NCBI GenBank assembly: GCA_017613335.1
Contig: JAGAEB010000073.1
Location: 1-37,185 of the forward strand
Direction of reading: 5' to 3'
Length of the DNA: 37,185 nucleotides
Origin: Methanosarcinaceae archaeon
Lineage (GTDB): Archaea > Halobacteriota > Methanosarcinia > Methanosarcinales > Methanosarcinaceae
The notes beneath the pieces are model-generated. The model worked only from the letters and a program-made list of their open reading frames with translations, ran no database searches and had not been told where the DNA came from. Positions 3,348-37,185 of this stretch are shown one piece after another (within the stretch, counting starts at the first letter, position 1; each line of letters begins with the position of its first letter). The position numbers and the translations under genes were made by a program.

Positions 3348-5219
3348 TCACCCGTTTTTAAGAAACGTTTCTGCGGTCAGCGTCTTATCATCACTTTCCG
3401 CTTCCTTTTCAAACGATCTCTGATACGCTGACAGCGTTCCGTCCAGTTCTTCGGGCGTCTTTCCTGTCCTGAGACAGATCTTTTCGAGAACGACTGAGCG
3501 GCTCATCAGATCTTCGGCCGTCGGCCGGTCTTCTTTTCCTGCATCATAGACATCGTTGACAACGACTTCGCCGGTCCTCGGATCGGTCCGGACGATCTCA
3601 TGGACAAAGAGACATTTTTTGGTATCTTTGCCGCGGACACGGACCGTTCCGAGAATGACGAGGATATCGAGGACCTGGATCATGGATTTCGGGACCGACA
3701 TCGGCGTGTTTTCAAGACGGTGGATGAGCCTGTCGACGGATTCGGCGTGGATCGTTGACAGCGTCGCATGTCCCGTCGACATCGCCTGAAAAAGAACGTA
3801 GGCTTCCGAGCCGCGGACCTCCCCGACGATGATGTATTCCGGCCGCTGGCGCATGGTCGTTTTCAGAAGATCGTAGAGCGTGATCCCGCCGTAAAGGCCG
3901 GAATACGCACCGCCGGATCCGGTGCTTTCCTGTCCGGCTGCGCTTCCGGCTTCCATAACGACAGGTTGTCTCGAGACTCCCGAGATCCAGTTCCGGTGCG
4001 GGAGAGAGATCTCGCGGGTGTCTTCGATGGAAATGATCTTCCGGTGTTCCGGAATAAAATAACTGACTGCATTGACGGCAGTCGTTTTTCCGCAGGCTGT
4101 GCCGCCGGCGAACATAATGTTCATGCCCGACTCGACCGCCAGTCTGAGGTAGGCCATGACGCCCGGCGGAAACGTGCCGAGGCGGACGAGATCATCAGGT
4201 CTGAACGGTCTTTCCGTGAATTTCCGGATCGTGAATGTGCTGCCTTTTGTCGTGATCTCACTGCCGAGAGACAGCTGAGCTCTCGACCCGTCCGGCAGAG
4301 ACGCATCCGCCAAAGGACCCGCGATCGTCAGCGATTTTCCGGAAACACCCGCAAAACGACGGACAAGACGGTCGAGTTCATCCCGCCCGAAAGAAATATC
4401 CGTCACGAGCGTCCCGTAAAGACGATGACAGACATAAACGGGCAGATCATAGCCGTTGCAGGAAATATCTTCGATCAGCGGATCTCTCAGGACAGGTTCG
4501 ATCCGCCCGTAACCGATGAGATCGCGAAACAGATAATAGAAGAGAACATTTTTCCTGGCCGGCGAAAGGCGGATATCGTAATCTCTGAGGATCTTCATCA
4601 CAGCTTTCTCAAAAAGACGGCAGTCGTCAGCGCGGCTGACGCCGCTGACGCTGCCGTCACAGGATTTCCCTCTGCGTTTTCCGTTCTCATGACTTTTTTC
4701 CCCGACGTTTTTCAGAAACGATCCTTCTTTCAGAGAACCGTTCAGGATCTCCGAATAAAGCAGGTGATCCCGGATCCTCTCTTTCAGCATTTTAAGACTT
4801 TCCGGAAACGGCGGCTCACAGACAGTATATCTGTCACCCGTGCATCTGACAGAAACAGTCACATACGGAAGAGAAAGATGATACACATCCGACAGCCCGT
4901 CCGGATCATTGTCTTTTTTTTGTCTTTCTGCGTGTCCTGCTTCTCTTTTTTGTCTCACTGCGGTCCTTTTGATCCTTTTATTCTTCCCGTCGTTGCCTCC
5001 GTTCTGTTTTTCTTCGTTTTCTTCGTTTTCTTCATTTTCTGCATTCTCTGCATTCTCTTCTCTTTGTTTTCTTTCATTCTCCCCGATCTGTTTATTTTCA
5101 TTCTCTCCGATCTGTTTATTTTCATTCTCCCCGATCTGTTTATTTTCATTCTCTTTCCGGACACTTGCCGGCTCTTCCTGTCTTTTTCTGAATATGATCA
5201 GTTCTCTCATTCCGGACAC
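3348..5219 (-). CDS. Type II/IV secretion system ATPase (FlaI/TadA/VirB11-GspE superfamily)
   Basis: Walker A is FAGGTACGKTT. It is followed by IEDTREI and YIIVGEVRGSEAYVLFQAMSTGH, which match the Asp-box, Walker B and His-box layout of secretion ATPases. The N-terminus carries (ENENKQIG)x3 and NAE/NEE repeats. Stop codon is TGA. Confidence 0.9.
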   Translation of the reverse strand: MSGMRELIIFRKRQEEPASVRKENENKQIGENENKQIGENENKQIGENERKQREENAENAENEENEENEEKQNGGNDGKNKRIKRTAVRQKREAGHAERQKKDNDPDGLSDVYHLSLPYVTVSVRCTGDRYTVCEPPFPESLKMLKERIRDHLLYSEILNGSLKEGSFLKNVGEKSHENGKRRGKSCDGSVSGVSRADDCRLFEKAVMKILRDYDIRLSPARKNVLFYYLFRDLIGYGRIEPVLRDPLIEDISCNGYDLPVYVCHRLYGTLVTDISFGRDELDRLVRRFAGVSGKSLTIAGPLADASLPDGSRAQLSLGSEITTKGSTFTIRKFTERPFRPDDLVRLGTFPPGVMAYLRLAVESGMNIMFAGGTACGKTTAVNAVSYFIPEHRKIISIEDTREISLPHRNWISGVSRQPVVMEAGSAAGQESTGSGGAYSGLYGGITLYDLLKTTMRQRPEYIIVGEVRGSEAYVLFQAMSTGHATLSTIHAESVDRLIHRLENTPMSVPKSMIQVLDILVILGTVRVRGKDTKKCLFVHEIVRTDPRTGEVVVNDVYDAGKEDRPTAEDLMSRSVVLEKICLRTGKTPEELDGTLSAYQRSFEKEAESDDKTLTAETFLKNG

Positions 5220-7728: not shown

Positions 7729-7855
7729 TCTGCGTCCTCCTGGATGATGATCAGCAAATCTGTTGTGATGCACGCGATACCTGACTGATGATAATGATAC
7801 AGGGCAATGAAACTATTTAATAAATATCTCAAATCAGAATGATTTCCGTTCAGTC

Positions 7856-8012
7856 TTTCTTTCCGGTCCTTTTTTCCGTCCGGTCATTCTTTCCGGTCCT
7901 GTTTTTCCGTTCCGTCATCCCTTCCGGTCCTGTTTTTCCGTTCCGTCATCCTTTCCTGTCCTGTTTTTCCGGCCTTCATTTCTCCTGTCCTGTCTTTTTC
8001 CGGCCGTCTTTT
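7856..8012. repeat. Degenerate tandem array, about 31-bp unit x5 (CTTTCCGGTCCTGTTTTTCCGTTCCGTCATC), between ipk and fni
   Basis: Direct reading. The array is pyrimidine-rich on + and therefore purine-rich on the sense strand of the flanking - strand genes. It abuts the ipk stop codon. Confidence 0.75.
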
Positions 8013-8794: not shown

Positions 8795-10249
8795 TCAGAT
8801 TTTATTTTCCCTTTCAGGAGTACCTGTTTTCTGTTCCGCTCTTCCGGCATTTCTGTTTTTGCTTTTTCCGTTTCCGGTCTTCAGGTATGCTTTTTTCGCC
8901 CCGGCCGCCATGCTTTTCACGGAAACGATCTTCGGTTTTCCCGCGCCGTTTTTCCCGCCGGCTTTTCCGGATTCTGATGTCCTGCCTTTTGCGGGAACGG
9001 TTTTTGCTTTTTCCGCTCCGTTCTTCACGGACACCGTTTTTGTTTTTTCCGCACCGTCTTTCACAGATGCTGTCTTTGCGCTTTCCGCGCCGTCTTTCAC
9101 AGATGCTGTCTTTGCGCTTTCCGCGCCGTCTTTCGCAGACGGTGTTTTTGATTTTGTCTTTCCGGGCTCTGTTTTTGCGTGCCCTGTCTTTATTTCTCTC
9201 GTGCTGTTTTTCGCATGTCCTGCTTTTGCTCCGCCTGTTCCGGCTTTCGGATATCCCGGTCTTGTCCCCGCTTTTTCGTCTTTTGCTTTTCCGGATCCGT
9301 TTTCTCCCGGTCTCTTTTCCTCTTTCGTGCGGCCGGTGTTTTTTTCGATGCGGACGCCTTCATTCGTCGTTCTGCAGACGAACGCGTCGCCGCCGGCTCT
9401 TTTGATCGCATGGGACACGCGCGGGATGTTCTTGTATTCGCAGAACGCGATCATGCAGCCGCCGCCGCCGGCGCCTGTGATCTTTGAACCGAAGGCGCCT
9501 GCTTTTCTGGATGCGTAAACAAGCGCAGACAGTTCCGCAGAACCGACGCCGATCGAATCGAGGAGTCCCTGATTGATGTTCATCAGTTCGCCGACGGCTT
9601 TGAAATTCCCTTCCGAGACGTATTTTTCGCCTGTCTTTGAAATGCTGCTGATCGTTTCCATGATCGGATCGATGATGACCGGATATGTGTCTTTCAGTTC
9701 CGCCACATTCGAAACGAGACGGCGTGTCGATGAAAATCTGCGCGTGTTGCCGATCACGACGGACGTTTCGGGAAAATCGGATCTCGTTCTGTCCGGGATC
9801 TTGACGATGCCGCCGAACGTCGAGACGAAAGTATCTGTCGGACTCGCTCTGCCCTGAACGGCCGTTTCTGCCGCATGACCTGTTGCGGCAATCTCCTCAT
9901 CCGTCATCCCGCAGTTGAAATAAGTGTCGAGCGCCTTGATCAGAGCGATCACGAGCGCCGCGGAAGAACCGAGACCGGATCCGACCGGGATGTCTGAATC
10001 GATATCGATGCAGAGGTTCTCCATTTCCGTTCTTTTGCGCATCAGTTCAAGAACGGCGGCGATATACGGGTGTTTTTTAGGATTGATGCCTGATGCATCA
10101 TCACCATCGGATCTGACGTGCATGTGTTCGGCAGGTTCCAGAGAAACTCTGGCGCGAAGATCGATCGCACAGGCCATTGCCGTTTTTCCGTAAACGACCG
10201 CATGTTCTCCGAAGAGAAATATTTTTCCGGGGGCCGAGCAGGTAATCAT
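8795..10249 (-). CDS. mvk: Mevalonate kinase (about 304-aa GHMP core) with a 180-aa Lys/Ala/Gly/Thr-rich repeat tail
   Basis: MITCSAPGKIFLFGEHAVVYG and PVGSGLGSSAA are GHMP motifs. The start is placed at ATG 10249, the conserved MVK N-terminus, not at track start 10426. The first in-frame stop after the core is TGA at 8795. Confidence 0.85.
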   Translation of the reverse strand: MITCSAPGKIFLFGEHAVVYGKTAMACAIDLRARVSLEPAEHMHVRSDGDDASGINPKKHPYIAAVLELMRKRTEMENLCIDIDSDIPVGSGLGSSAALVIALIKALDTYFNCGMTDEEIAATGHAAETAVQGRASPTDTFVSTFGGIVKIPDRTRSDFPETSVVIGNTRRFSSTRRLVSNVAELKDTYPVIIDPIMETISSISKTGEKYVSEGNFKAVGELMNINQGLLDSIGVGSAELSALVYASRKAGAFGSKITGAGGGGCMIAFCEYKNIPRVSHAIKRAGGDAFVCRTTNEGVRIEKNTGRTKEEKRPGENGSGKAKDEKAGTRPGYPKAGTGGAKAGHAKNSTREIKTGHAKTEPGKTKSKTPSAKDGAESAKTASVKDGAESAKTASVKDGAEKTKTVSVKNGAEKAKTVPAKGRTSESGKAGGKNGAGKPKIVSVKSMAAGAKKAYLKTGNGKSKNRNAGRAEQKTGTPERENKI

Positions 10250-10697
10250 TTGAAAAACTCTCCGAAAACGCCTGGTACGGCGTCTGAGATTAATTTTAAC
10301 GAAAAACGACCCCCTCCTATTTAAAAAATGACCTGATATTTTCCGATCTTCCCGGTGTCTGCCGACATTGCTGACATCCGTCGATGTTTTTCTGTGTCTT
10401 CCGAGATCGCCGGCATCTCGTGACATAACTATCCCACCCTGCTTTTTTCTTCTTCCTTTTCCGGCGGTTCTCTCCGTCTGAAGGTTTTCTCATCCGCATT
10501 CTTTTTTAGTGATCGGCTCTTTTCTGTATCAGCTGATCTCCTGCCGGGCGATCATCAGGCCGGAAGGCCGGGATCTCTTGGTCAGGAAAACGGATATCCG
10601 GAATAAATATCGGAATATATGTCCGGAACAGACGTCCGGAACAGACATCCGGAATATATGTCCGGAAAACAGCCGCAGGAAAAGGGTGATCTGAAAT

Positions 10698-11411: not shown

Positions 11412-12566
11412 GTGAGCAGCATGAGCCCGAAAACCCCGAACCGCAAAGACACATCCGGATCAGAAAAAACAGAACCCGAAGCCGGCAAAACAAAAAACGG
11501 TACCGCAAAGAACGCCGCAAAGAACGCCGCAAAGAACGCCGCAGAGAACGCCGCAAAGAACGCCGCAGAGAAAACCGCTGCGGAGAAAACCGCTGCGGAG
11601 AAAACCACTGCGGAGAAAACCGCTGCGGAGAAAACCACTGCGAAGAAAACCACTGCGAAGAAGACAAATGAAGCAGTGAAAAAAGATGCCGGATCCGGCG
11701 CACCGGCGCATCCGCATGACGGAAACATTCCTGAAATGACGACCGAAGAAGCCGTCGAGATCATCGGCGAACTTGATCATCTTTATCCGCACACGCCGGC
11801 AGAAAAGAATTTCCTTAAATTCGACAATCCTTTCCAGATCCTCATCATGACGATCCTTTCCGCGCAGACGACGGATGCGACCGTCAACAGCATCCGCGGT
11901 GAACTTTTCAGAACTTATCCGACGCCTGCAGATCTGGCGGGCGCAGACGTTTCCGATGTTGAACGGATCATCCATCCGGCCGGTTTTTTCCACGCAAAAG
12001 CCGGACACATCATGAAAACGTCGGAAAGACTCTGTACCGCTTACGGCGGCGAAGTCCCGGCCGACATGAACGAACTGACGACGCTTTCAGGCGTCGGCCG
12101 GAAGACTGCCAACATCGTCCTCGAACACGCCTTCGGGATCACAGTCGGGATCGCCGTCGACACGCACGTCGGCAGGCTTTCAAAAAAACTCGGCTTTACG
12201 GAAAACACGGATCCCGTCAAAGCCGAAAAAGATCTCATGGCGCTTTTCCCTGAAGAATGGTGGGGCGAGATCAATTATCTCCTGATAAGACACGGCCGGG
12301 AAGTCTGTCAGGCCAAAAAACCCGACTGCGCGCACTGCGCCGTCCGGGAACACTGTCGGGATTTCATGAACCGTGAAAACTATAATCGACGGAAAATGTT
12401 TTATACGCGGGCAACATTACCGTTGATCGAATATTACAAGCAGTCAATTCACGGAGAAAAAAAATCAATGAATATACTATCAGGTATAATCTTCGGCGCC
12501 GTTTTCGGTGCGATATTCGGAATTGTATCATATTATATCAACAAGAAAAACAAGTCCCGCCTGTAA
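11412..12566 (+). CDS. nth: Endonuclease III (HhH-GPD DNA glycosylase with 4Fe-4S loop) with repeat N-tail and C-terminal hydrophobic extension
   Basis: The core shows ILSAQTTD, an HhH LSGVGRKTANIV, VDTHV and the cluster CQAKKPDCAHCAVREHC (C-x6-C-x2-C-x5-C). ATG 11412 has GGTGA upstream. An alternative ATG at 11736 would skip the repeat tail. There is no stop until TAA at 12564-12566. Confidence 0.85.
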   Translation: MSSMSPKTPNRKDTSGSEKTEPEAGKTKNGTAKNAAKNAAKNAAENAAKNAAEKTAAEKTAAEKTTAEKTAAEKTTAKKTTAKKTNEAVKKDAGSGAPAHPHDGNIPEMTTEEAVEIIGELDHLYPHTPAEKNFLKFDNPFQILIMTILSAQTTDATVNSIRGELFRTYPTPADLAGADVSDVERIIHPAGFFHAKAGHIMKTSERLCTAYGGEVPADMNELTTLSGVGRKTANIVLEHAFGITVGIAVDTHVGRLSKKLGFTENTDPVKAEKDLMALFPEEWWGEINYLLIRHGREVCQAKKPDCAHCAVREHCRDFMNRENYNRRKMFYTRATLPLIEYYKQSIHGEKKSMNILSGIIFGAVFGAIFGIVSYYINKKNKSRL

Positions 12567-16744: not shown

Positions 16745-16782
16745 AGAACAGGCCGGTCTCCGACCTGTTCTTCCTGTTTTTT
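16745..16782 (+). terminator. Hairpin plus T-run downstream of the RaSEA gene
   Basis: AGAACAGG (16745-52) pairs with CCTGTTCT (16764-71) across an 11-nt loop. It is followed by TCCTGTTTTTT. Confidence 0.45.
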
Positions 16783-16787
16783 ACAGA

Positions 16788-17008
16788 AAGGATTTCAGTG
16801 TTTTTCACACAAGGCCTCAGTGTTTTTTCACACAAGGCCTCAGTGTTTTTTCATACAAGGCCTCAGTGTTTTTTCACACAAGGCCTCAGTGTTTTTTCAC
16901 ACAAGGCCTCAGTGTTTTTTCACACAAAGGATTTCAGCGTTTTTCACACGAAGGGTTTCAGTATTCGGGTTTCAGTGTTTTTTTCACACGAAAGATCTCC
17001 GTGTTTTT
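16788..17008. repeat. Tandem array, 23-bp unit (CACACAAGGCCTCAGTGTTTTTT), about 5 good plus 4 degenerate copies
   Basis: CACAC motifs recur at 23-nt spacing (16806, 16829, and so on). Each unit carries a T6 run on +. The array lies between the convergent RaSEA and ecfT genes and abuts the ecfT stop. Confidence 0.9.
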
Positions 17009-20044: not shown

Positions 20045-20200
20045 GGCCGGAAAACAGACGACCGGAAAACAAACGGTATCGGAAAACAGACGACTGAAAA
20101 ACAAACGGTATCGGAAAACAGACGACTGAAAAACAAACGGTATCGGAAAACAGACGGCTGAAAAACAAACGGTATCGGAAAACAGACGGCTGAAAAACGA
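20045..20200. repeat. Tandem array, 32-bp unit (AAACAAACGGTATCGGAAAACAGACGACTGAA) x about 4.5
   Basis: AAACGG recurs at 20071, 20103, 20135 and 20167. The array is purine-rich on + and sits in the divergent ECF/pycB spacer. Confidence 0.88.
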
Positions 20201-24968: not shown

Positions 24969-26021
24969 ATGAAAAATACGATACCTTCAAAGAGAAAAAA
25001 CAATCTCGGATTTTTCATTTCCGTTCTTTTTTCGGGTTTATTGGTCTTCAGTCTCCTTTTCAGCAGTCCTTTTCTGATTTCCGGCGCATCTGCCGCCCGG
25101 ATTGTCCCGCTCCCGTCTCCTGATCCGTCCCCTGATCCTTTTTCCGACATGTCGGCTGTGATCTCTGAACTGAATGATCACTCGGGCATCCCGTTATCGG
25201 ATGAGACGATATATGCCCGTGAAGGCGTTCTTTACGATATCGGCCAGAATTATTCTTTCCTGATCAAAGGAAGCGTTCAGGACAGGGTCACAAAAATATG
25301 GATCGAGCTGTATTATATGCCTCAGACCGGCAGAAGAGTCACGATCGACAGTTTCGTCCTCAAAGAAAACGAATCTTTCGTCTGCAGCAGGCTCGTCACG
25401 ATCGGCAGCGGAAAGGATGATCCGGAAAACGGGGATCCTTCCGGGCCGCATGAAGCAGATGGTGCAGACACCGCGACCGCTCCTGCAGATGCGCAGACCG
25501 GTCATGAGGCAGCCGTCTTCTCTTTTCCGGTCATCACCGCTTCATATTCAAGGACTTACCTGCACGACGAATCTTCTCTGATCGAATTCAGTCCGTTTAC
25601 CGTCTTCAGAGATCCCGTCAGAGAATGCGGTCTCGACGATTCTGACATGAACATGAACTGGTCTGTCGAACACAGGCACGAAAACGACAGCACCGGAAAT
25701 CTTCCCGATCCGGGAACCGACGACGGAAATGTCCCGTCTGCCACCGGCAACGAAAACGATCCGCCCGGCACAGACGACGCGGACAGTCCCTCCGCCTCAG
25801 ACGACGGTCACAATCCTTCCGCCTCAGACGACGGCAGCAGTCCGTCTGTCACAGACGATCCGGAAAACAGGCCTTCCCGCAGTCCCGGTCCGGCCGGGAC
25901 GGGCATATCCGATCCGTTCGGCGATCCTGAAAACATCATTCCGGGAATCCCGGCCGCCCTGATCCTTTCAGGCATCTTTGCCGCGGCAGGTATCATTTAT
26001 TTCAGAAACCGGCGTGCCTGA
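24969..26021 (+). CDS. Secreted or surface-anchored protein: N-terminal signal/TM, acidic Pro/Ser/Asp repeats, C-terminal TM plus basic tail
   Basis: MKNTIPSKRKNNLGFFISVLFSGLLVFSLLF...SGASAA looks like a signal peptide. The repeats are D-D-x-x-x-P-S-A-S/T. The C-terminus is PGIPAALILSGIFAAAGIIYFRNRRA. An alternative start is ATG 24948. Confidence 0.65.
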   Translation: MKNTIPSKRKNNLGFFISVLFSGLLVFSLLFSSPFLISGASAARIVPLPSPDPSPDPFSDMSAVISELNDHSGIPLSDETIYAREGVLYDIGQNYSFLIKGSVQDRVTKIWIELYYMPQTGRRVTIDSFVLKENESFVCSRLVTIGSGKDDPENGDPSGPHEADGADTATAPADAQTGHEAAVFSFPVITASYSRTYLHDESSLIEFSPFTVFRDPVRECGLDDSDMNMNWSVEHRHENDSTGNLPDPGTDDGNVPSATGNENDPPGTDDADSPSASDDGHNPSASDDGSSPSVTDDPENRPSRSPGPAGTGISDPFGDPENIIPGIPAALILSGIFAAAGIIYFRNRRA

Positions 26022-26026
26022 TATTG

Positions 26027-26128
26027 TTTATGATGCCGTCTGTGATGCCGGTTATGACACCGTCTATGATGCCGTCTATGATGCCATCTATATGATGCCG
26101 TTTATGACACCGTTTATGATGCCGTCTG
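26027..26128. repeat. Tandem array, 12-bp unit (TATGATGCCGTC) x about 8
   Basis: Direct reading, with variants TGTGATGCCGGT and TATGACACCGTC. Confidence 0.8.
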
Positions 26129-26325
26129 CCGGATCATGCCTGTCGGAATATTTCCCGGGATGCAGTGATTTTTTATCCCGGGCGGGATCATCGTTTTCCG
26201 AAATCCAAATGTATATATACGATGTATCAATATGTTTACCAAAAATCTCTGATACGTTTACATTTGGACCGGAAAAGATCTTTTCTTTTCCCGTCCGGAT
26301 TTCCGGCGGTCAGTTTCAGAACGGG

Positions 26326-27279
26326 GTGATCAGCATAAAAGACAATATTGATACCGAAAAACAAAATCCCGGACAGCAGACATCATCCTCCGGTCCGGGA
26401 GACACTGTCGGAAAGATACCCGGAAGACCGGTCGTCGAAGTCATCGACGTCTGCAAATCTTATCAGATGGGCACGGAATCGGTCTCTGTTCTGAACCACA
26501 TCAATTTCACAGTACAGGAAGGCGAATTCGTTTCCATCGTCGGCCCGTCGGGTTCCGGCAAAAGTACGATCATGAATCTGCTCGGCTGTCTGGACAGACC
26601 GACATCCGGAACGATCCTGATCAACGGTCAGGATGTCAGCCTCATGAACGACAGACAGCTGGCAAATCTGCGCGGTCTTGAGATCGGCTTCATTTTCCAG
26701 AAATACAATCTCGTCTCAAGACTGAATGTCCTCGACAATGTCCTCCTGCCGACATTTGCCAACAAAAAGCCGGACACAGACACAAAACAAAGAGCCCTTG
26801 ATCTTCTTGAAATGGTCGGTCTGTCGGATCATATTTACCACAGACCCTCCGAACTTTCAGGCGGACAGTCCCAAAGAGTGGCCATCGCGCGCGCCCTGAT
26901 CAATGATCCGACGATCGTCCTCGCCGACGAACCGACAGGCGCCCTCGATTCCAAATCAGGCGACGACGTCATGAACATTTTTTCGGAAATGAATCAGAGA
27001 GGCGCAACGATCATCATGATCACGCACAACAGAGAACTCGCCGAAAGAACGGACAGGATCATTTCCGTCAAAGACGGATACATCATCCGATCGTTCTGTC
27101 TGCCCGCCTGCACAGTGTTGTTCAGTGTTCGTCTGTTCAGTGTTCGTCTGTTCAGTGTTCGTCTGTTCAGTGTTCATCTGTTCAGTGTTCATCTGTTCAG
27201 TGTTCATCTGTTCAGTCTGTGCATCCGTTCTGATTTGCTCAGCTTATTCATCTTTCAGTTTATTCATCTTTCAGTTTAA
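26326..27279 (+). CDS. ABC transporter ATP-binding protein, MacB/LolD-type
   Basis: [14 protein letters not shown]...GPSGSGKST...[15 protein letters not shown]...[10 protein letters not shown]. The start is uncertain: GTG 26326 is the last in-frame start before the core, and ATG 26209 is the alternative. The C-terminal about 55 aa is encoded by a 15-bp tandem array. Stop codon is TAA. Confidence 0.8.
27113..27218. repeat. Tandem array, 15-bp unit (TTCAGTGTTCGTCTG / ...CATCTG) x6-7, inside the 3' end of the ABC ATPase ORF
   Basis: Direct reading. It translates as (LFSVR)x3(LFSVH)x3. Confidence 0.9.
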
Positions 27280-30476: not shown

Positions 30477-31358
30477 TCATCCGGACTGCTTTTTCTGTTC
30501 ATTTTCAAGAAATTCCCGAATGAAGCGTTTCCTTTTTTCATCATGTTTTTTTCCGGCGCGTCCGGCGACGGAATATGCCATGATCGCTCTTTTAAAATCA
30601 AGAAGTCCGAATTCCGGCCACATTTTTTCTGAAACGTAAAAGACAGCGCGGTTCCCGTTTGCCTGCCAGGACAGGAAATTGGATGTCCTGAGCTCGCCGC
30701 CCGTCCGGATGACCAGATCAACGTCCGGGACGGGATTTCTGCATTCCGGCGACGGCCAGAGATTTTTACGGATCTCTTCTCTCAGATCTTTTCCGGGATC
30801 GTTCATTTCTGCGGATGCCTCTGACATTTTCCGGAAGGCTGATACAAGATCCTGACGGCCCCCGTAGGCAAGCGCGATATTGACGAACATGCGATCGTTG
30901 TCTTTCGTTTTTTCTTCAATCTCACGGATCGTTCCGACGATCCCTTCCGGCAGAAGGGACAGATCTCCGATAACGCGGACACAGAGTCCTCTCTTCATGA
31001 TCTTTTCATCGCGGATGAGCTGATCCAGTTTTTCTGTCAGAAGAGAAAAGATCGTCCGGATCTCTTCATCTTTCCTGTTGAAATTCTCTGTCGAAAAAGC
31101 ATAGACCGTCAGACAGGAAACGCCCGCCCGGTAAGCCCATTCGATGATACGGCTCGTCGTCTTGGTCCCCATCCGGTGGCCGGCGCCCGCAGCGATACCG
31201 TGTTTTCCGGCATAACGGCGGTTTCCGTCCATGATGACGGCAATATGGCGGGGGATGTATACATCACGGAAACGGTCCGAACGGCTTTCTTTTATTTTCT
31301 TTTCAGGAAACGGAGAGCGTCCGTCCGAAAAATATGAGTGGGGAAGAGTCGTCGTCAT
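30477..31358 (-). CDS. uppS: Undecaprenyl (cis-prenyl) diphosphate synthase
   Basis: HIAVIMDGNRRYA, TVYAFSTENFNR and the C-terminal RTGGELRTSNFLSWQ are cis-IPPS motifs. The only in-frame start is ATG 31358. Stop codon is TGA. Confidence 0.9.
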   Translation of the reverse strand: MTTTLPHSYFSDGRSPFPEKKIKESRSDRFRDVYIPRHIAVIMDGNRRYAGKHGIAAGAGHRMGTKTTSRIIEWAYRAGVSCLTVYAFSTENFNRKDEEIRTIFSLLTEKLDQLIRDEKIMKRGLCVRVIGDLSLLPEGIVGTIREIEEKTKDNDRMFVNIALAYGGRQDLVSAFRKMSEASAEMNDPGKDLREEIRKNLWPSPECRNPVPDVDLVIRTGGELRTSNFLSWQANGNRAVFYVSEKMWPEFGLLDFKRAIMAYSVAGRAGKKHDEKRKRFIREFLENEQKKQSG

Positions 31359-32604
31359 GATTGATCCCTGTATTGACTTTGTTTTTTATGATCTTTCCTG
31401 TTTCCGGAATCGTCTTTTTCCGGCAGATTCGGAGGAGCTGTTCACTTTCGGCCACAAAGCCTTTTCTGAAAGGATATTTTTCGACAAGAACGATCCGGAT
31501 ATTTTCCCGGATGTTTCTGAGATATGCGTTTTCTTCTGAATCTTCTGCGTTTCCGCCTGCTTCTGAGAACACAGCTGCCAGTTCTTCCGCGATCTCAGGC
31601 GCCGTTTCAATGATGACGGCATCACTCACGCCGTCGTCAATGATCTCGTAAGCTTCCGCCGGGAGTTCATTTTCCAGGATCTCTTTCATGTCGCTGAAGA
31701 CCGACAGATCGCAGACGATCTTTCCGAAACTGAGCGTTCCGTCTTCCGTGATGCTGTCGAAAGGTCTTGCCGCTTTTGAGGCAATGCGCAGGAGACGCAG
31801 TCTCAGCTGGACTCTGTCTTTATACCTGGATGAACAGAAATTCATGCCGGAGCGTCCTTCCGACTTCATGCAGCCGGCGCACGGTGCATAAACGGAAAAA
31901 GTTTCTTCCGCAATGCGGCGCGATCCTTTGACGGAATTGTTCTCATCCGTCGCCAGGACATATCCGCGCTGACGAAGCTGCTCAGCATTGTTTTCAGAAA
32001 ATTCCAGCTCATTGAGGTTGAGGAAACAGCCGATCGATGATGAAAAAGCGGCAACGTCAGAAACGCCCTCGATCGAAGGGATCTCAATGCCGGCGCAGAT
32101 GCCGCAGGCCTATGCTTTTCTGATCGCTCTTTCATAATCCGATCCTTCAAGAGACGGCCACAGATCCGCCGGCGGATGGAATCTGATCTCGTCAAGTCCC
32201 GCAGAAGCCAGCTTTTCAAGCGTTTCATCATCCGCGGCCAGCGACGTGTAAAGATGGATATGATGCGCCTGCCCGAATCTTTTTTTCAGAAGAGTCATGT
32301 AACGGATGACATCATCAAGTCTGAGAAGCGGCTCGCCGCCGGTGATCCCTGTCCCGAGCGCATCCATTTCAAGCGCTTCTTCAATGACGTCATCATCAGA
32401 AAGGATCTGTCTTTCATTGACGAAAGAGACGTCTCTCTCTTTGCGGTCATCCGAAAGCGGGCAGTAGAAACAGTCCCTGCCGCACAGGCCGGTCACAAAA
32501 AGGACCAGCTTGCCGCCTTTCTGACAGAGAAGACAGCCTTCGGGAAGAAAATCCGAAAATGATTCAGACTCCTCCATCAGTTTCTTTACCGGATCATCCG
32601 TCAT
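31303..32604 (-). CDS. Radical SAM protein (PflA-activase-related, COG2108-like), one 433-codon frame with a single in-frame TAG at 32110-32112
   Basis: The N-part (track ORF 32110..32604) has the CGRDCFYC CxxxCxxC motif. After the TAG, 80 open protein-like codons (ACGICAGIEIPSIEG...YAPCAGC) continue in the same frame into track ORF 31303..31869 (735 nt = 245 codons apart). If TAG is a true stop, the model splits into 32110..32604 and 31303..31869. Confidence 0.6.
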
Positions 32605-32608
32605 TTTA

Positions 32609-32775
32609 TCACACTTTTCAGATTCTGCTTTCTGTCACTTTTTCAGATTCTGCTTTTGTCACTTTTTCAGATTCTGCTTTCAGTCACTTTTTCAGATTCT
32701 GCTTTTGTCACTTTTTCAGATTCTGCTTTTGTCACTTTTTCAGATTCTGCTTTTGTCACTTTTTCAGATCGTGTT
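32609..32775. repeat. Tandem array, 24-25-bp unit (GTCACTTTTTCAGATTCTGCTTTT) x7
   Basis: CAGATTC recurs at 32619, 32644, 32668, 32693, 32717, 32741 and 32765. The array fills the whole spacer between the aCPSF1 stop and the radical SAM start. Confidence 0.9.
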
Positions 32776-32784
32776 TTTATCCTT

Positions 32785-34683
32785 TTACATGATCCTTGAT
32801 GTTTCCAGATTGACGAGCGGCTTTGAATCGACTTTGGCCTTTTTGCGGAGGGCTTCCGAGAATTCACGGCATGATTTTTCATCGCCGTGCATCGTATAGA
32901 CCATCTCAGGCTTCGGCTGCATGCGGCGGATATATTCCATCAGCTGCCTGACATCCGAGTGACCGGAGAAACCGTCGACTGTCCAGATCTCCATATTGAC
33001 TTTGACGATATCGTTTCCGAAGGGAACTTCTTTCCAGCCTTTCTGGAGTCTGCGGCCGGTCGTTCCGTCTGCCTGATAACCGACAAAGATGAGGGAATTG
33101 CGGTCATCGGCTGCCAGATGCGTGAAATAATTCATGACAGGGCCGCCGTTCATCATACCGGATGTGGCAATGATCACGCAGGGATCGCGCTCTTTGAGGA
33201 TCTTTTCACGGATCTCCTTTGAGTCGACAGGGCGGAAACATTCCGCCAGGAACGGATTCTGGCCTTTCTGGAAGATCTGCTTTTTGAGGTCGCTGTTGAG
33301 ATATTCCGGATGCGTGGCATGGATGGCCGTTGCTTCCCAGATCATACCGTCCAGATAGACCGGCACTTTCGGGATGATCCCTTTGTGGATCGCTTCTTCA
33401 ATGACGATCATGACTTCCTGACTTCTGCCGACGGCAAACGCCGGGATCAGGGCAATGCCGTTTCTCTCAAGCGTTTTCCTGACGATCGACTGCAGATTCT
33501 TTTCAGCTTCCTTGAGCGGCGGCTGATAGCCGTTCACGTTGCCGTATGTGGATTCTGAGATGACCGTCTCGACGCGCGGGAACTTGTTGACGGCCGGATC
33601 GAAAAGTCTCGTCCTTTCATATTTGTAGTCGCCGGTGAAGACAATATTGTGAAGACCGTCTCCGATATGGAAATGAGAAACGGCGGATCCGATGATGTGT
33701 CCGGCATTGTGGAACGTGAGTTTGATATCCGGTGAGATGTCCGTTACTTCTTCGTATTCCAGCGGGATGATGTGGAGCAGTTCCTTTTCGATCATTTCTC
33801 TGGTATACGGCGGCTTTTTGCCTTCTTTCTCCGCCACATCGATGTAGTCGAGCTGCAGGAGAACAGTCATATCGCGCGTCGGCGGCGTGCAGTAGACGGG
33901 GCCGTTGTAGCCGTATTTGAAGAGCATCGGGACGAGTCCCTGGTGGTCCATGTGGGCGTGCGTGAGGATGACGGCATCGAGAGAATTGAAATCGTTGACT
34001 TCAGGCACATAGAGATACGGGCTCATGTTCTCGTCCGATCCGACATTGACGCCGCAGTCGATCATGACTTTTGATTCCGGCGTCGATAAAATGTAACAAC
34101 TGCGGCCGACTTCAAGGGCGCCGCCGAGCGCCGTCACGCGGATCCACTGATCATGATAATGAGGTTCCCTGTGGATCTTGCGTCCGATCGTTTTGAGGAT
34201 CTCTTTTCTTTCATTGAGATTGATGCGCATGAAGTCACGGATATTCTTGACCGTCTTCGATTTGATCGGCGGGGTCCTGGAAACTTTCGGCGTCCATCCG
34301 ATCTCTTTTGTGATATCGCGGAGCGTATCTCCGTGTTTTCCGATGACAAGTCCCGTCTTTTCAGCTTCGATGATCACTTCACCGGCATCGGGGTCAAAAT
34401 AGTGATTCGTGATCCCGGCGTCTTTCGGAACGATCCTGTCAATGATCTCTATGGATTTTTCCGGCGCGACAAGAACTTTCGGATCAGGTCTGACGGCAAT
34501 GCGCATCCGGATCTTCTTTGCCAGTTCCCGGATAATATTGCCGTCATCGGCAAATTTCTTCGGATCTTCCGTATAGAGGACCAGCTGCGGCCCTTCGAAT
34601 TCGAGGTCTGAAAAAGTCACGCCCTTGGGCAGATTTTTTTCAATATCCTTCCGAAGATCCTTTAAAACATCATCTATCGGCAT
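32785..34683 (-). CDS. fttA: aCPSF1 / FttA: KH-KH plus metallo-beta-lactamase plus beta-CASP ribonuclease (archaeal transcription termination factor)
   Basis: It is 632 aa. The N-terminal KH region reads [18 protein letters not shown]...[10 protein letters not shown]. The MBL motif is THAHMDHQG, and beta-CASP motifs follow in the C-terminal region. Stop codon is TAA. Confidence 0.95.
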
Positions 34684-34924
34684 GATTTACTTCCTTTGAA
34701 TCAATGAAAACAATTCCGGGATTCTGAGAATGTTCCGGCGGTCTCCGGAACCTGCGGGACGGATGAGGACTGTCCGGCTCTTTCCGGAAAGCCTCTCCGT
34801 TTCTCAGGATCCTGAGACTTCTGATTTTCATTTTCTGAAGACCGGTCCTGCCTGTCACGTTAAAAAATTCTGTCTGTTCCGTACTTTTCGGAACTGTCTG
34901 CAAAAAGAAGAACTGACAGGACGA

Positions 34925-35240
34925 CCGGAAATTGATTGGAGATGAATATGAATGGGGATGTGATGTGGATGAGAATGTGAGTGATGTGGATGGTGATGTG
35001 ATATGGATGAGAATGTGATGTGGATGGTGATTGTGATATGGATGAGAATGTGATGTGGATGGTGACGTGATATGGATGAGAATGTGATGTGGATGGTGAT
35101 TGTGATATGGATGGGAATGTGATATGAATGAAGATATGATGTGGATGTGAATGAAGATATGATGTGGATGTGAATGAAGATATGATGTGGATGTGAATGG
35201 TGATGTGATGTGGATAAGAATGTGATGAGGATCACTGTCA
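34925..35240. repeat. Compound G/T/A-rich tandem array: about 35-bp unit x4, then 23-bp unit (GAATGAAGATATGATGTGGATGT) x3
   Basis: ATATGGATGAG recurs at 35001, 35036, 35070 and 35105, followed by a 23-nt periodicity. The His-rich - strand ORFs here are composition artefacts. Confidence 0.85.
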
Positions 35241-35388
35241 AATGAATGAAAATGAATGATATGTGCCGGCACAAATCTGACGGGTCTGTCCGGATCGCCG
35301 GCTCTTCATATGAACGACCGGCGATGAACGACAGACACGGATCCGGCAGACTGCCGGATCGGACTGTTCCGGGATCACATCGTTTTCA

Positions 35389-37019: not shown

Positions 37020-37185
37020 CGGACCGGATACCGGCTGTTTCAGCTGCCCGGCCGGCTTTGTCCGTTCAGCTGTTCCGGCCGGCTTTGTCCTTTCAGCGCT
37101 GTTCCGGCCGGCTTTGTCCTTTCAGCTGTTCCGGCCGGCTTTGTCCTTTCAGCGCTGTTCCGGCCGGCTTTGTCCTTTCAGCGCT
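37020..37185. repeat. Tandem array with alternating 27/29-bp units (CAGC(GC)TGTTCCGGCCGGCTTTGTCCTTT), running off the window end
   Basis: CCGGCCGG recurs at 37047, 37074, 37103, 37130 and 37159. Confidence 0.85.

What the first reader, a model, noticed from the sequence alone, without database searches (positions are those of the whole stretch)
31303..32604. One in-frame amber codon splits a radical SAM gene: candidate pyrrolysine or programmed read-through site
- Track ORF 32110..32604 (-) encodes the N-terminal part of a PflA-activase-like radical SAM protein with a CGRDCFYC cluster motif. It ends at TAG (32110-32112).
- I translated the 240 nt downstream by hand. They form 80 stop-free codons in the same frame that look like real protein: ACGICAGIEIPSIEGVSDVAAFSSSIGCFLNLNELEFSENNAEQLRQRGYVLATDENNSVKGSRRIAEETFSVYAPCAGC. 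This stretch includes further Cys pairs.
- Those codons run directly into track ORF 31303..31869, whose ATG at 31869 has no SD-like sequence upstream.
- The locus is therefore one 433-codon frame with a single TAG. The 164-aa N-fragment alone would be a truncated barrel.
- Together with the absence of TAG stops in this window, translation of UAG (pyrrolysine in Pyl-decoding methanogens, or suppression) is a serious possibility. A recent pseudogene or a genuine split gene are the alternatives.
- I do not claim a PYLIS-like element.
Basis: partly seen in the sequence, partly recalled or inferred. Interest (0 to 1): 0.85.

Follow-up and report, generated by a model that had tools for sequence, protein, structure and literature searches.

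The report
Amber codon inside radical SAM gene
A rumen methane-producing archaeon carries one TAG "stop" codon in the middle of an otherwise intact enzyme gene, and because the same genome holds the full pyrrolysine machinery, the codon is most likely read as the 22nd amino acid, which is a known habit of this group and not a new phenomenon.

Summary
Window 31303..32604 (-) is one 433-codon frame with a single in-frame TAG at codon 165 (32110-32112).

- **Homologues:** they are single polypeptides of 350-400 aa (radical SAM + DUF8061) across Methanosarcinaceae. The TAG column is Lys in 31 of 44.
- **Sister lineage:** the closest one (92% nt identity) has CAG, so the TAG is one C>T change away.
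- **Not a sequencing error:** all 13 sequences compared carry TAG, and the 164-aa product is called on at least 24 independently assembled rumen or buffalo contigs.
- **Same genomes hold the pyrrolysine machinery:** two of those contigs belong to MAGs that also carry pylT(CUA)-pylS-pylB-pylC-pylD, and all four proteins score above NCBIfam cut-offs.
- **No other TAG stops:** none of 44 other long ORFs in 51 kb of this organism ends in TAG.
- **No decay downstream:** dN/dS after the TAG (0.126) equals that before it (0.11), and all 34 family-invariant residues after the TAG are kept.
- **Split gene unlikely:** there is no start codon in the 80 codons after the TAG.
- **No PYLIS-like fold** follows the TAG.

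Best reading: a neutral, lineage-specific pyrrolysine site, a "Category 1" internal TAG in the sense of Kivenson et al. (2024). A very recent pseudogene cannot be excluded without proteomics. This is a new member of a known kind, of moderate interest.

The parts
31303..32604 (-). Full read-through ORF: 433 sense codons plus one in-frame TAG. It encodes an uncharacterised radical SAM protein with a C-terminal DUF8061 domain.
   Evidence: translation; PF04055, 45.5 bits against a cut-off of 29.5; single-polypeptide homologues aligned over 86-92% of the joined query; PF26257 plus PF04055.
32110..32112 (-). The in-frame TAG, codon 165. The sister lineage has CAG (Gln) here and 31 of 44 homologues have Lys. 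In the model of the sister protein the residue lies near the end of helix 156-166.
32113..32604 (-). Codons 1-164. This part would form the first four beta/alpha units of the radical SAM barrel and is the only product if TAG terminates.
   Evidence: strands 32-36, 84-88, 115-120 and 139-142 lie before the TAG; strands 170-176 and 194-198 lie after it.
32461..32484 (-). CX3CX2C [4Fe-4S] cluster motif (CGRDCFYC, codons 41-48).
   Evidence: C41, C45 and C48 are invariant in 44 homologues.
31870..32109 (-). The 80 codons between the TAG and the next possible start codon. They hold no ATG, GTG or TTG and carry family-invariant residues (G172, E174, P176, F194, N196, N198, E199, L200, E201, N206, S228). 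dN/dS against the sister lineage is 0.105.
31303..31869 (-). The stretch that gene callers report as a separate 188-aa ORF. It is the C-terminal DUF8061 part of the protein.
   Evidence: PF26257, weak.
31303..31410 (-). C-terminal tail changed by a +1 nt insertion relative to the sister lineage. The ORF runs 28 codons further and overlaps uppS by 56 nt. The change lies outside the conserved domain.
32615..32769 (.). Tandem repeat with a 24/49-nt unit (6.4 copies of the 24-nt unit) in the fttA-rSAM spacer, just upstream of the start codon. The spacer length differs between contigs.

Best explanation
The locus is one gene for a roughly 400-430 aa radical SAM enzyme of unknown substrate. The host is an uncultured ruminant-gut member of the Methanosarcinaceae intestinal clade (Methanimicrococcus, Methanolapillus, 'Methanofrustulum').

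**Inferred mechanism.** A C>T transition turned a surface Gln/Lys-type codon (CAG in the sister lineage) into TAG. The organism makes pyrrolysine and Pyl-tRNA(CUA), and it has almost stopped using TAG as a terminator. Ribosomes therefore insert Pyl at codon 165 and continue to the TGA at 31303, giving a full-length protein. No special mRNA element is needed. Pyl-tRNA competes with release factor aRF1, so some 164-aa truncated product is probably made as well.

**What Pyl does here.** It is most likely a tolerated, neutral replacement and not a catalytic residue.

**Shown:** the gene anatomy, fixation of the TAG in the population, a complete pyl gene set in the same MAGs, and purifying selection across the TAG.

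**Inferred:** actual Pyl insertion and its efficiency.
For: - **One frame, one TAG**.
- **Homologues are single polypeptides:** the listed hits are 330-421 aa and align over most of the joined query. The closest named ones are Methanolapillus and Methanimicrococcus at 54-55% identity.
- **The TAG column tolerates many residues:** K31, Q3, M3, I2, and one each of A, E, R, N, L. It sits in a confidently modelled helix (mean pLDDT 87.9).
- **Sister lineage has CAG** (P0001, 93% aa identity).
- **The TAG is fixed in the population:** it is in all 13 sequences compared, which are 99.7-100% identical. The 164-aa product is called on at least 24 contigs from several studies.
- **The pyrrolysine machinery is in the same genomes:** tRNA-Pyl(CUA)-pylS-pylB-pylC-pylD lie on CAXZGS010000074.1 and CAXZKY010000036.1, contigs of the two MAGs that carry the TAG allele, and in three of the same metagenomes.
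- **All four Pyl proteins pass NCBIfam equivalog cut-offs:** 592.8/550, 462.1/348.2, 379.6/248.3 and 257.9/150.05 bits.
- **TAG is not otherwise used as a stop:** 0 of 44 other ORFs of at least 100 aa in 51 kb of this organism end in TAG.
- **Selection continues across the TAG:** dN/dS is 0.11 upstream, 0.126 downstream and 0.105 in the start-less 80 codons. All 34 invariant columns after the TAG are kept.
- **The window keeps the consensus** at the two highly conserved sites where it differs from its sister, S258 and A279.
- **Literature on the clade:** Methanimicrococcus is one of eight genera with numerous internal-TAG genes, and Pyl was confirmed by proteomics at such sites in M. burtonii and M. 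alvi (10.1101/2024.09.30.615893).
- **Literature on decoding:** UAG in M. acetivorans yields both a long and a short product (PMC12626013).
Against: - There is no protein-level evidence for this gene or this organism.
- The TAG is lineage-specific, since the sister has CAG. The TAG lineage is nearly clonal, so the TAG could be young.
- With dS = 0.38 to the sister, only about 2% of that path could have been neutral, but the known population depth (0.3-0.5%) is smaller than that. A recent nonsense mutation would therefore leave the same dN/dS.
- Polymorphisms within the lineage are too few to decide: downstream 3 synonymous and 3 nonsynonymous, upstream 0 and 2.
- The same lineage has a second change, a +1 frameshift in the extreme 3' tail.
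- In M. acetivorans UAG is ambiguous, so read-through may be partial (PMC12626013).
- Only 51 kb of the genome was inspected for TAG use.
Confidence: 0.72

Rival explanations
1. Recent pseudogene. A CAG>TAG nonsense mutation inactivated the gene shortly before the present population expanded. Too little time has passed for the downstream frame to decay.
For: - The TAG is absent from the sister lineage.
- The TAG lineage is nearly clonal, 99.7-100% identical.
- There is a second lesion-like change, a +1 frameshift in the 3' tail.
- One minor allele changes the nearly invariant F16 to L.
- The intestinal clade is undergoing genome reduction (PMC11362671).
Against: - The organism has a complete pylTSBCD set, and no other ORF examined ends in TAG. 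A TAG there is therefore not a reliable terminator.
- dN/dS downstream equals that upstream.
- All invariant residues are retained.
- There are no indels or extra stops in any of 13 sequences.
- The frameshift only affects a non-conserved tail beyond the end of most homologues.
- The allele is found in many animals and studies.
Confidence: 0.2
2. Genuine split gene. Two separately translated polypeptides of 164 aa and 188 aa assemble into the enzyme.
For: Gene callers report two ORFs. Split radical SAM proteins are conceivable.
Against: - The first possible start codon after the TAG is 80 codons downstream.
- Those 80 codons include two predicted barrel strands and eleven invariant residues, among them the FLNLNELEF block, and they are under purifying selection (dN/dS 0.105).
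- None of the 120 listed homologues is split.
Confidence: 0.03
3. Assembly or sequencing error, or read-through by something other than Pyl, such as a near-cognate tRNA.
For: None specific.
Against: - The same TAG appears in independent assemblies made with different assemblers, samples and studies.
- A dedicated tRNA(CUA) with its synthetase is present.
- In Code 34 archaea no other amino acid was found at TAG positions (10.1101/2024.09.30.615893).
Confidence: 0.03

Closest known systems
Category 1 internal-TAG genes of Pyl-decoding archaea, 'Genetic Code 34' (Kivenson et al., bioRxiv 10.1101/2024.09.30.615893)
   Same: - A TAG inside a gene whose two sides both match one known protein.
- Read-through adds far more than 15 aa, and the overlap with the next gene is under 60 nt.
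- The host has the Pyl machinery and hardly uses TAG as a stop.
- The site is a singleton confined to one lineage, as that paper reports for nearly all non-methyltransferase Pyl proteins.
- Methanimicrococcus, a related genus, is listed there.
   Different: - This organism is an uncultured ruminant lineage with 52% GC.
- No text held here mentions this radical SAM/DUF8061 family as a Pyl protein. The paper's supplementary tables were not available.
- Genome-wide reassignment was not tested here, since only 51 kb were seen.
Pyl in tRNA-His guanylyltransferase (Thg1) of Methanosarcina acetivorans, acquired by neutral evolution (cited in 10.1101/2024.09.30.615893 and PMC12626013)
   Same: A housekeeping-type enzyme with one in-frame TAG at a non-conserved position. 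Relatives have ordinary residues there, and no PYLIS element is needed.
   Different: For Thg1, Pyl incorporation was shown experimentally. Here it is inferred.
RdmS sensor kinase of M. acetivorans, with ambiguous UAG decoding (PMC12626013)
   Same: An internal TAG in a non-methyltransferase gene in the family Methanosarcinaceae. It is the mechanistic model for competition between Pyl-tRNA and the release factor.
   Different: RdmS was shown to give both long and short forms, depending on pylBCD. The ratio for the present gene is unknown.
Methylamine methyltransferases MtmB, MtbB and MttB
   Same: They use the same decoding machinery.
   Different: In those enzymes Pyl is catalytic and its position is conserved across all lineages, and mtmB has a PYLIS-like stem-loop. 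Here the position is variable (Lys, Gln and others) and no stable structure follows the TAG.

Membership tests
Pyl-decoded internal TAG gene (Category 1 of Kivenson et al.) | The genome encodes pylT, pylS, pylB, pylC and pylD | tested here: met
   The cluster lies on contigs of both MAGs that carry the TAG allele. ARAGORN finds tRNA-Pyl (cta). NCBIfam equivalogs are all above cut-off.
Pyl-decoded internal TAG gene (Category 1 of Kivenson et al.) | [quoted passage not shown] | tested here: met
   47-58% identity to the aligned single-polypeptide homologues, with alignments that run across the TAG.
Pyl-decoded internal TAG gene (Category 1 of Kivenson et al.) | Read-through extends the protein by more than 15 aa without a large (over 60 nt) out-of-frame overlap | tested here: met
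   The extension is 268 codons. The overlap with uppS (30477..31358) is 56 nt.
Pyl-decoded internal TAG gene (Category 1 of Kivenson et al.) | A Pyl-containing peptide is observed | not testable with these tools
   This needs (meta)proteomics.
Genetic Code 34 organism (all TAG = Pyl) | Most TAG-containing genes are Category 1, and few or none are Category 4, genome-wide | tested here: inconclusive
   Only 51 kb were seen. One of one TAG-ending ORFs is Category 1, and 0 of 44 other ORFs of at least 100 aa end in TAG.
Radical SAM superfamily | CX3CX2C cluster motif and a Pfam PF04055 match above the gathering score | tested here: met
   CGRDCFYC at residues 41-48. PF04055 scores 45.5 bits against 29.5. 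The model matches radical SAM partial barrels such as BioB, HydE, NifB and viperin.
Pyruvate formate-lyase activating enzyme (PflA) | NCBIfam TIGR02493 above its cut-off | tested here: not met
   23.3 bits against a cut-off of 231.75. No NCBIfam equivalog is reached. 'PflA-like' is only a general superfamily resemblance.
PYLIS-dependent Pyl site (mtmB type) | An unusually stable stem-loop directly 3' of the UAG | tested here: not met
   Over 113 nt from the TAG, the MFE is -28.6 against a shuffle mean of -32.9, z = +1.24. The element is known not to be required (10.1101/2024.09.30.615893).
Decaying pseudogene | Relaxed selection and further disabling lesions downstream of the stop | tested here: not met
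   dN/dS is 0.126 downstream against 0.11 upstream. There are no further stops or indels in 13 sequences. A very recent inactivation would escape this test.

The most novel reading that the evidence does not exclude
The ruminant-gut Methanosarcinaceae lineage that owns this window has fully given up TAG as a terminator (Genetic Code 34). The radical SAM enzyme depends on Pyl supply for full-length synthesis, so its level is tied to methylamine-driven expression of the pyl genes. This would be a conditional, diet-linked switch in a rumen methanogen.
Probability: 0.12. Interest if true: 0.55.

Novelty: new member of a known kind. Interest (0 to 1): 0.38.

Why it matters
**Annotation.** Standard gene calling splits this gene into a 164-aa and a 188-aa fragment in every public assembly and misses 80 conserved codons. 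Genomes of this rumen methanogen lineage should be annotated with TAG as a sense (Pyl) codon.

**Biology.**
- It adds an uncultured, ruminant-associated Methanosarcinaceae lineage to the archaea in which amber codons have begun to appear inside ordinary genes.
- It adds a widely conserved but uncharacterised radical SAM/DUF8061 family to the list of candidate Pyl proteins.
- The CAG sister allele gives a natural control pair for measuring UAG read-through.

Tried and rejected
- **Genome-contig scan with the joined protein.** The window's species is not in that collection.
- **First PylS search with M. mazei PylRS.** The 120 listed hits were all closely Methanosarcina-like (at least 60% identical; those with names are Methanosarcina).
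- **Look-up of P0237.** It led to an unrelated contig.
- **Route that worked.** The representative search gave the GC-rich catalytic-domain representative P0262. A third homologue search, the cluster members and a contig look-up of P0467 then led to the pyl locus.
- **P0412.** This turned out to be 'Methanofrustulum fimipullorum' (33% GC), not the window's organism.
- **Searches that returned nothing.** The PDB sequence search found no hit. A literature search for COG2108 gave nothing useful. The supplementary tables of the Code 34 preprint are not held.
- **Polarising amino-acid changes with outgroups.** There were too few informative sites to decide.
- **Within-lineage polymorphism.** Eight sites are too few.
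- **Promoter and terminator scan.** Nothing exceeded chance, and the scan is a bacterial model anyway.

Full report
**1.
- The minus strand of window 31303..32604 translates as 164 sense codons, one TAG (32110-32112), 268 further sense codons and a TGA.
- The CGRDCFYC motif is at codons 41-48.
- By the definition used in the ORF listing, the first ATG/GTG/TTG after the TAG is the ATG at 31869. The 80 codons in between therefore hold no possible start.
- Among 33 non-overlapping ORFs of at least 100 aa in the window, 25 end in TGA, 7 in TAA, and only this one in TAG.
- TAG is also the rarest stop trinucleotide in all frames: 58 and 71 occurrences on the two strands, against 837 and 899 for TGA.

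**2. What the gene is.**
- The joined protein matches Pfam Radical_SAM above the gathering score (45.5 against 29.5 bits). It reaches no NCBIfam equivalog, and PflA scores 23.3 against a cut-off of 231.75. 'PflA-like' is therefore only a superfamily resemblance.
- The 120 best database hits carry PF04055 plus PF26257 (DUF8061). They are 330-421 aa long and align across most of the joined query. The named ones are nearly all Methanosarcinaceae.
- The closest named hits are Methanolapillus and Methanimicrococcus at 54-55% identity.
- No homologue has a solved structure by sequence search.
- An AlphaFold model of the 93%-identical protein P0001 is confident (pLDDT 87.9, pTM 0.83). It resembles the partial barrels of BioB, HydE, NifB, viperin and MoaA.
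- Residue 165 lies near the end of helix 156-166. Two predicted barrel strands (170-176, 194-198) and the whole C-terminal domain follow it.
- The substrate is unknown.

**3. The TAG position in relatives.**
- In 44 homologues the column is K (31), Q (3), M (3), I (2), and A, E, R, N, L once each. Its neighbours are variable too.
- The closest relative is P0001 on loci L001-L003. It is 93% identical in protein and 91.7% in DNA, sits in the same fttA-rSAM-uppS gene order, and has CAG at this codon.
- The TAG is therefore one C>T transition away from a Gln codon, at a site that tolerates long side chains.

**4. The TAG is real and fixed in a population.**
- The exact 164-aa product is called on at least 24 contigs, from ENA assemblies of several studies, Logan assemblies and two NCBI MAGs.
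- Twelve such loci plus the window were compared over the whole 1302 nt. They are 99.7-100% identical, have no indels, and all have TAG at codon 165.
- Sequencing or assembly error is excluded.

**5. The organism.**
- The neighbours are fttA, uppS, ycaO-tfuA, a proteasome subunit gene and pyruvate carboxylase genes, which point to a methanogenic archaeon.
- GC content is 52%.
- The sample names point to ruminant and buffalo gut metagenomes.
- Protasov et al. (PMC11362671) describe an intestinal clade of Methanosarcinaceae comprising Methanimicrococcus, Methanolapillus and 'Methanofrustulum'. It includes goat and water-buffalo MAGs with 51% GC. The window most likely belongs to that ruminant lineage.
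- The species is not in the genome-contig collection.

**6. The pyrrolysine machinery is in the same genome.**
- A first PylS search returned only Methanosarcina-like proteins.
- A search of cluster representatives gave a GC-rich catalytic-domain sequence, P0262. Its 90% cluster holds P0467 and two NCBI proteins named pyrrolysine--tRNA(Pyl) ligase [Methanosarcinaceae archaeon].
- P0467 is encoded on CAXZGS010000074.1 (GCA_964295265.1) and CAXZKY010000036.1 (GCA_964296365.1). These are contigs of the two MAGs whose other contigs, CAXZGS010000140.1 and CAXZKY010000012.1, carry the TAG allele.
- It is also found in three of the same metagenomes: ERZ28653428, ERZ28633782 and ERZ27298463.
- These loci have 54% GC in L016.
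- They carry a tRNA-Pyl gene with anticodon CUA. Read by eye, it is nearly identical to the M. mazei pylT that I recall from memory.
- The tRNA gene is followed by pylS, pylB, pylC and pylD. All four score above NCBIfam equivalog cut-offs: 592.8/550, 462.1/348.2, 379.6/248.3 and 257.9/150.05 bits.
- In the 13.8-kb pyl locus, none of 12 long ORFs ends in TAG. Together with the window, that is 0 of 44 apart from the site in question.

**7. Read-through or decay?**
- Against the CAG sister, dN/dS is 0.11 for codons 1-164, 0.126 for codons 166-393, and 0.105 for the 80 start-less codons. Neighbouring genes range from 0.02 to 0.22.
- All 34 columns after the TAG that are invariant in the 16-sequence alignment are kept in the window.
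- At the two strongly conserved sites where the window and its sister differ (258 and 279), the window has the consensus residue.
- If ω = 0.11 is the constrained value, only about 2% of the total path to the sister (dS 0.38) can have been neutral. This is my calculation.
- The known depth of the TAG population is only 0.3-0.5%, so a very recent nonsense mutation would leave the same picture.
- Polymorphisms inside the lineage number eight: upstream 0 synonymous and 2 nonsynonymous, downstream 3 and 3. That is too few to decide, but it shows no extra relaxation downstream.
- A genuine two-piece enzyme is unlikely. The 80 codons without a start codon carry eleven invariant residues, including the FLNLNELEF block, and two predicted barrel strands.

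**8. No special signal.**
- The 113 nt from the TAG onward fold no better than shuffles (z = +1.24).
- Rfam finds nothing there.
- This is expected. [quoted passage not shown]

**9. Mechanism proposed.**
- Pyl-tRNA(CUA) is charged by PylS with Pyl made by PylBCD. It decodes UAG-165 through the ordinary elongation pathway, in competition with aRF1.
- The main functional product is a full-length enzyme with Pyl on a helix surface. Some 164-aa product is likely, as was shown for RdmS in M. acetivorans, where both long and short forms appear and the long form needs pylBCD (PMC12626013).
- The anatomy, the machinery and the selection pattern are shown. Insertion itself is inferred.

**10. Comparison with what is known.**
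- Kivenson et al. (10.1101/2024.09.30.615893) classify TAG genes by the effect of read-through. Their Category 1 is an internal TAG with homology on both sides.
- Eight genera, including Methanimicrococcus, have many Category 1 genes. [quoted passage not shown] Nearly all such sites are singletons restricted to one genome or genus, probably neutral, as for Thg1.
- The present site meets every sequence-based criterion of Category 1.
- It is therefore a new member of a known kind. It adds a new protein family and a new uncultured ruminant lineage, not a new mechanism.
- Whether the organism has fully reassigned TAG (Code 34) or still reads it ambiguously cannot be told from 51 kb.

**11. Verdict.**
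A split gene and an error are both unlikely.
- Interest is moderate (0.38). The case is clean and has practical value for annotation and as a natural CAG/TAG allele pair, but the phenomenon is already described.

Noticed in passing
window 32615-32769: A tandem repeat (24-nt unit, 6.4 copies; also read as a 49-nt unit) fills the spacer between the fttA stop and the radical SAM start codon. The spacer length differs between contigs of the same near-clonal population (84, 133, 157 and 181 nt), so this is a copy-number polymorphism directly upstream of the gene.
   Followed up: partly
whole window, e.g. 1-197, 2840-2981, 5051-5155, 7843-7998, 16775-16954, 20048-20198, 34949-35232, 37048-37185: The window is unusually rich in short tandem repeats (periods of 12-73 nt). 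There are more than 20 separate arrays in 37 kb, in both coding and intergenic DNA.
   Followed up: no
window 34670-35272 (-): A 200-aa ORF with no Pfam match contains a 17/23/69-nt repeat array. Its called length is 180, 200 or 240 aa on different contigs, so the protein is length-polymorphic.
   Followed up: no
window about 31303-31410 (-): Relative to the CAG sister lineage, the TAG lineage has a +1 nt insertion about 110 nt before the end of the ORF. The tail ...KKTSRKQERS* is replaced by 35 other residues, and the ORF now overlaps uppS by 56 nt.
   Followed up: partly
window 31463-32062 compared with its flanks: Synonymous divergence from the sister lineage is about twice as high in the part of the gene after the TAG (dS 0.38) as before it (0.17) or in the neighbouring genes (0.13-0.19). 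dN/dS is unchanged. This is unexplained; recombination or local rate variation are possibilities.
   Followed up: partly
L029 2231-3892 (also L016, L026-L035): PylS of this organism has a long Ala/Ser/Pro-rich repetitive linker between its N- and C-terminal domains, within a 553-codon ORF. Most gene callers report only the 277-aa catalytic part.
   Followed up: partly
window 25978-27279 (+): An ABC ATPase gene has different called lengths on different contigs (421, 411, 317 and 270 aa). It contains 12-nt and 15-nt repeat arrays.
   Followed up: no
window 8795-10426 (-) and 11412-12566 (+): A GHMP-kinase ORF is unusually long (543 aa) and carries an internal 36/72-nt repeat. An HhH-GPD glycosylase has a Lys-rich, HC2-like repetitive N-terminus built from 12-nt and 15-nt repeats.
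   Followed up: no
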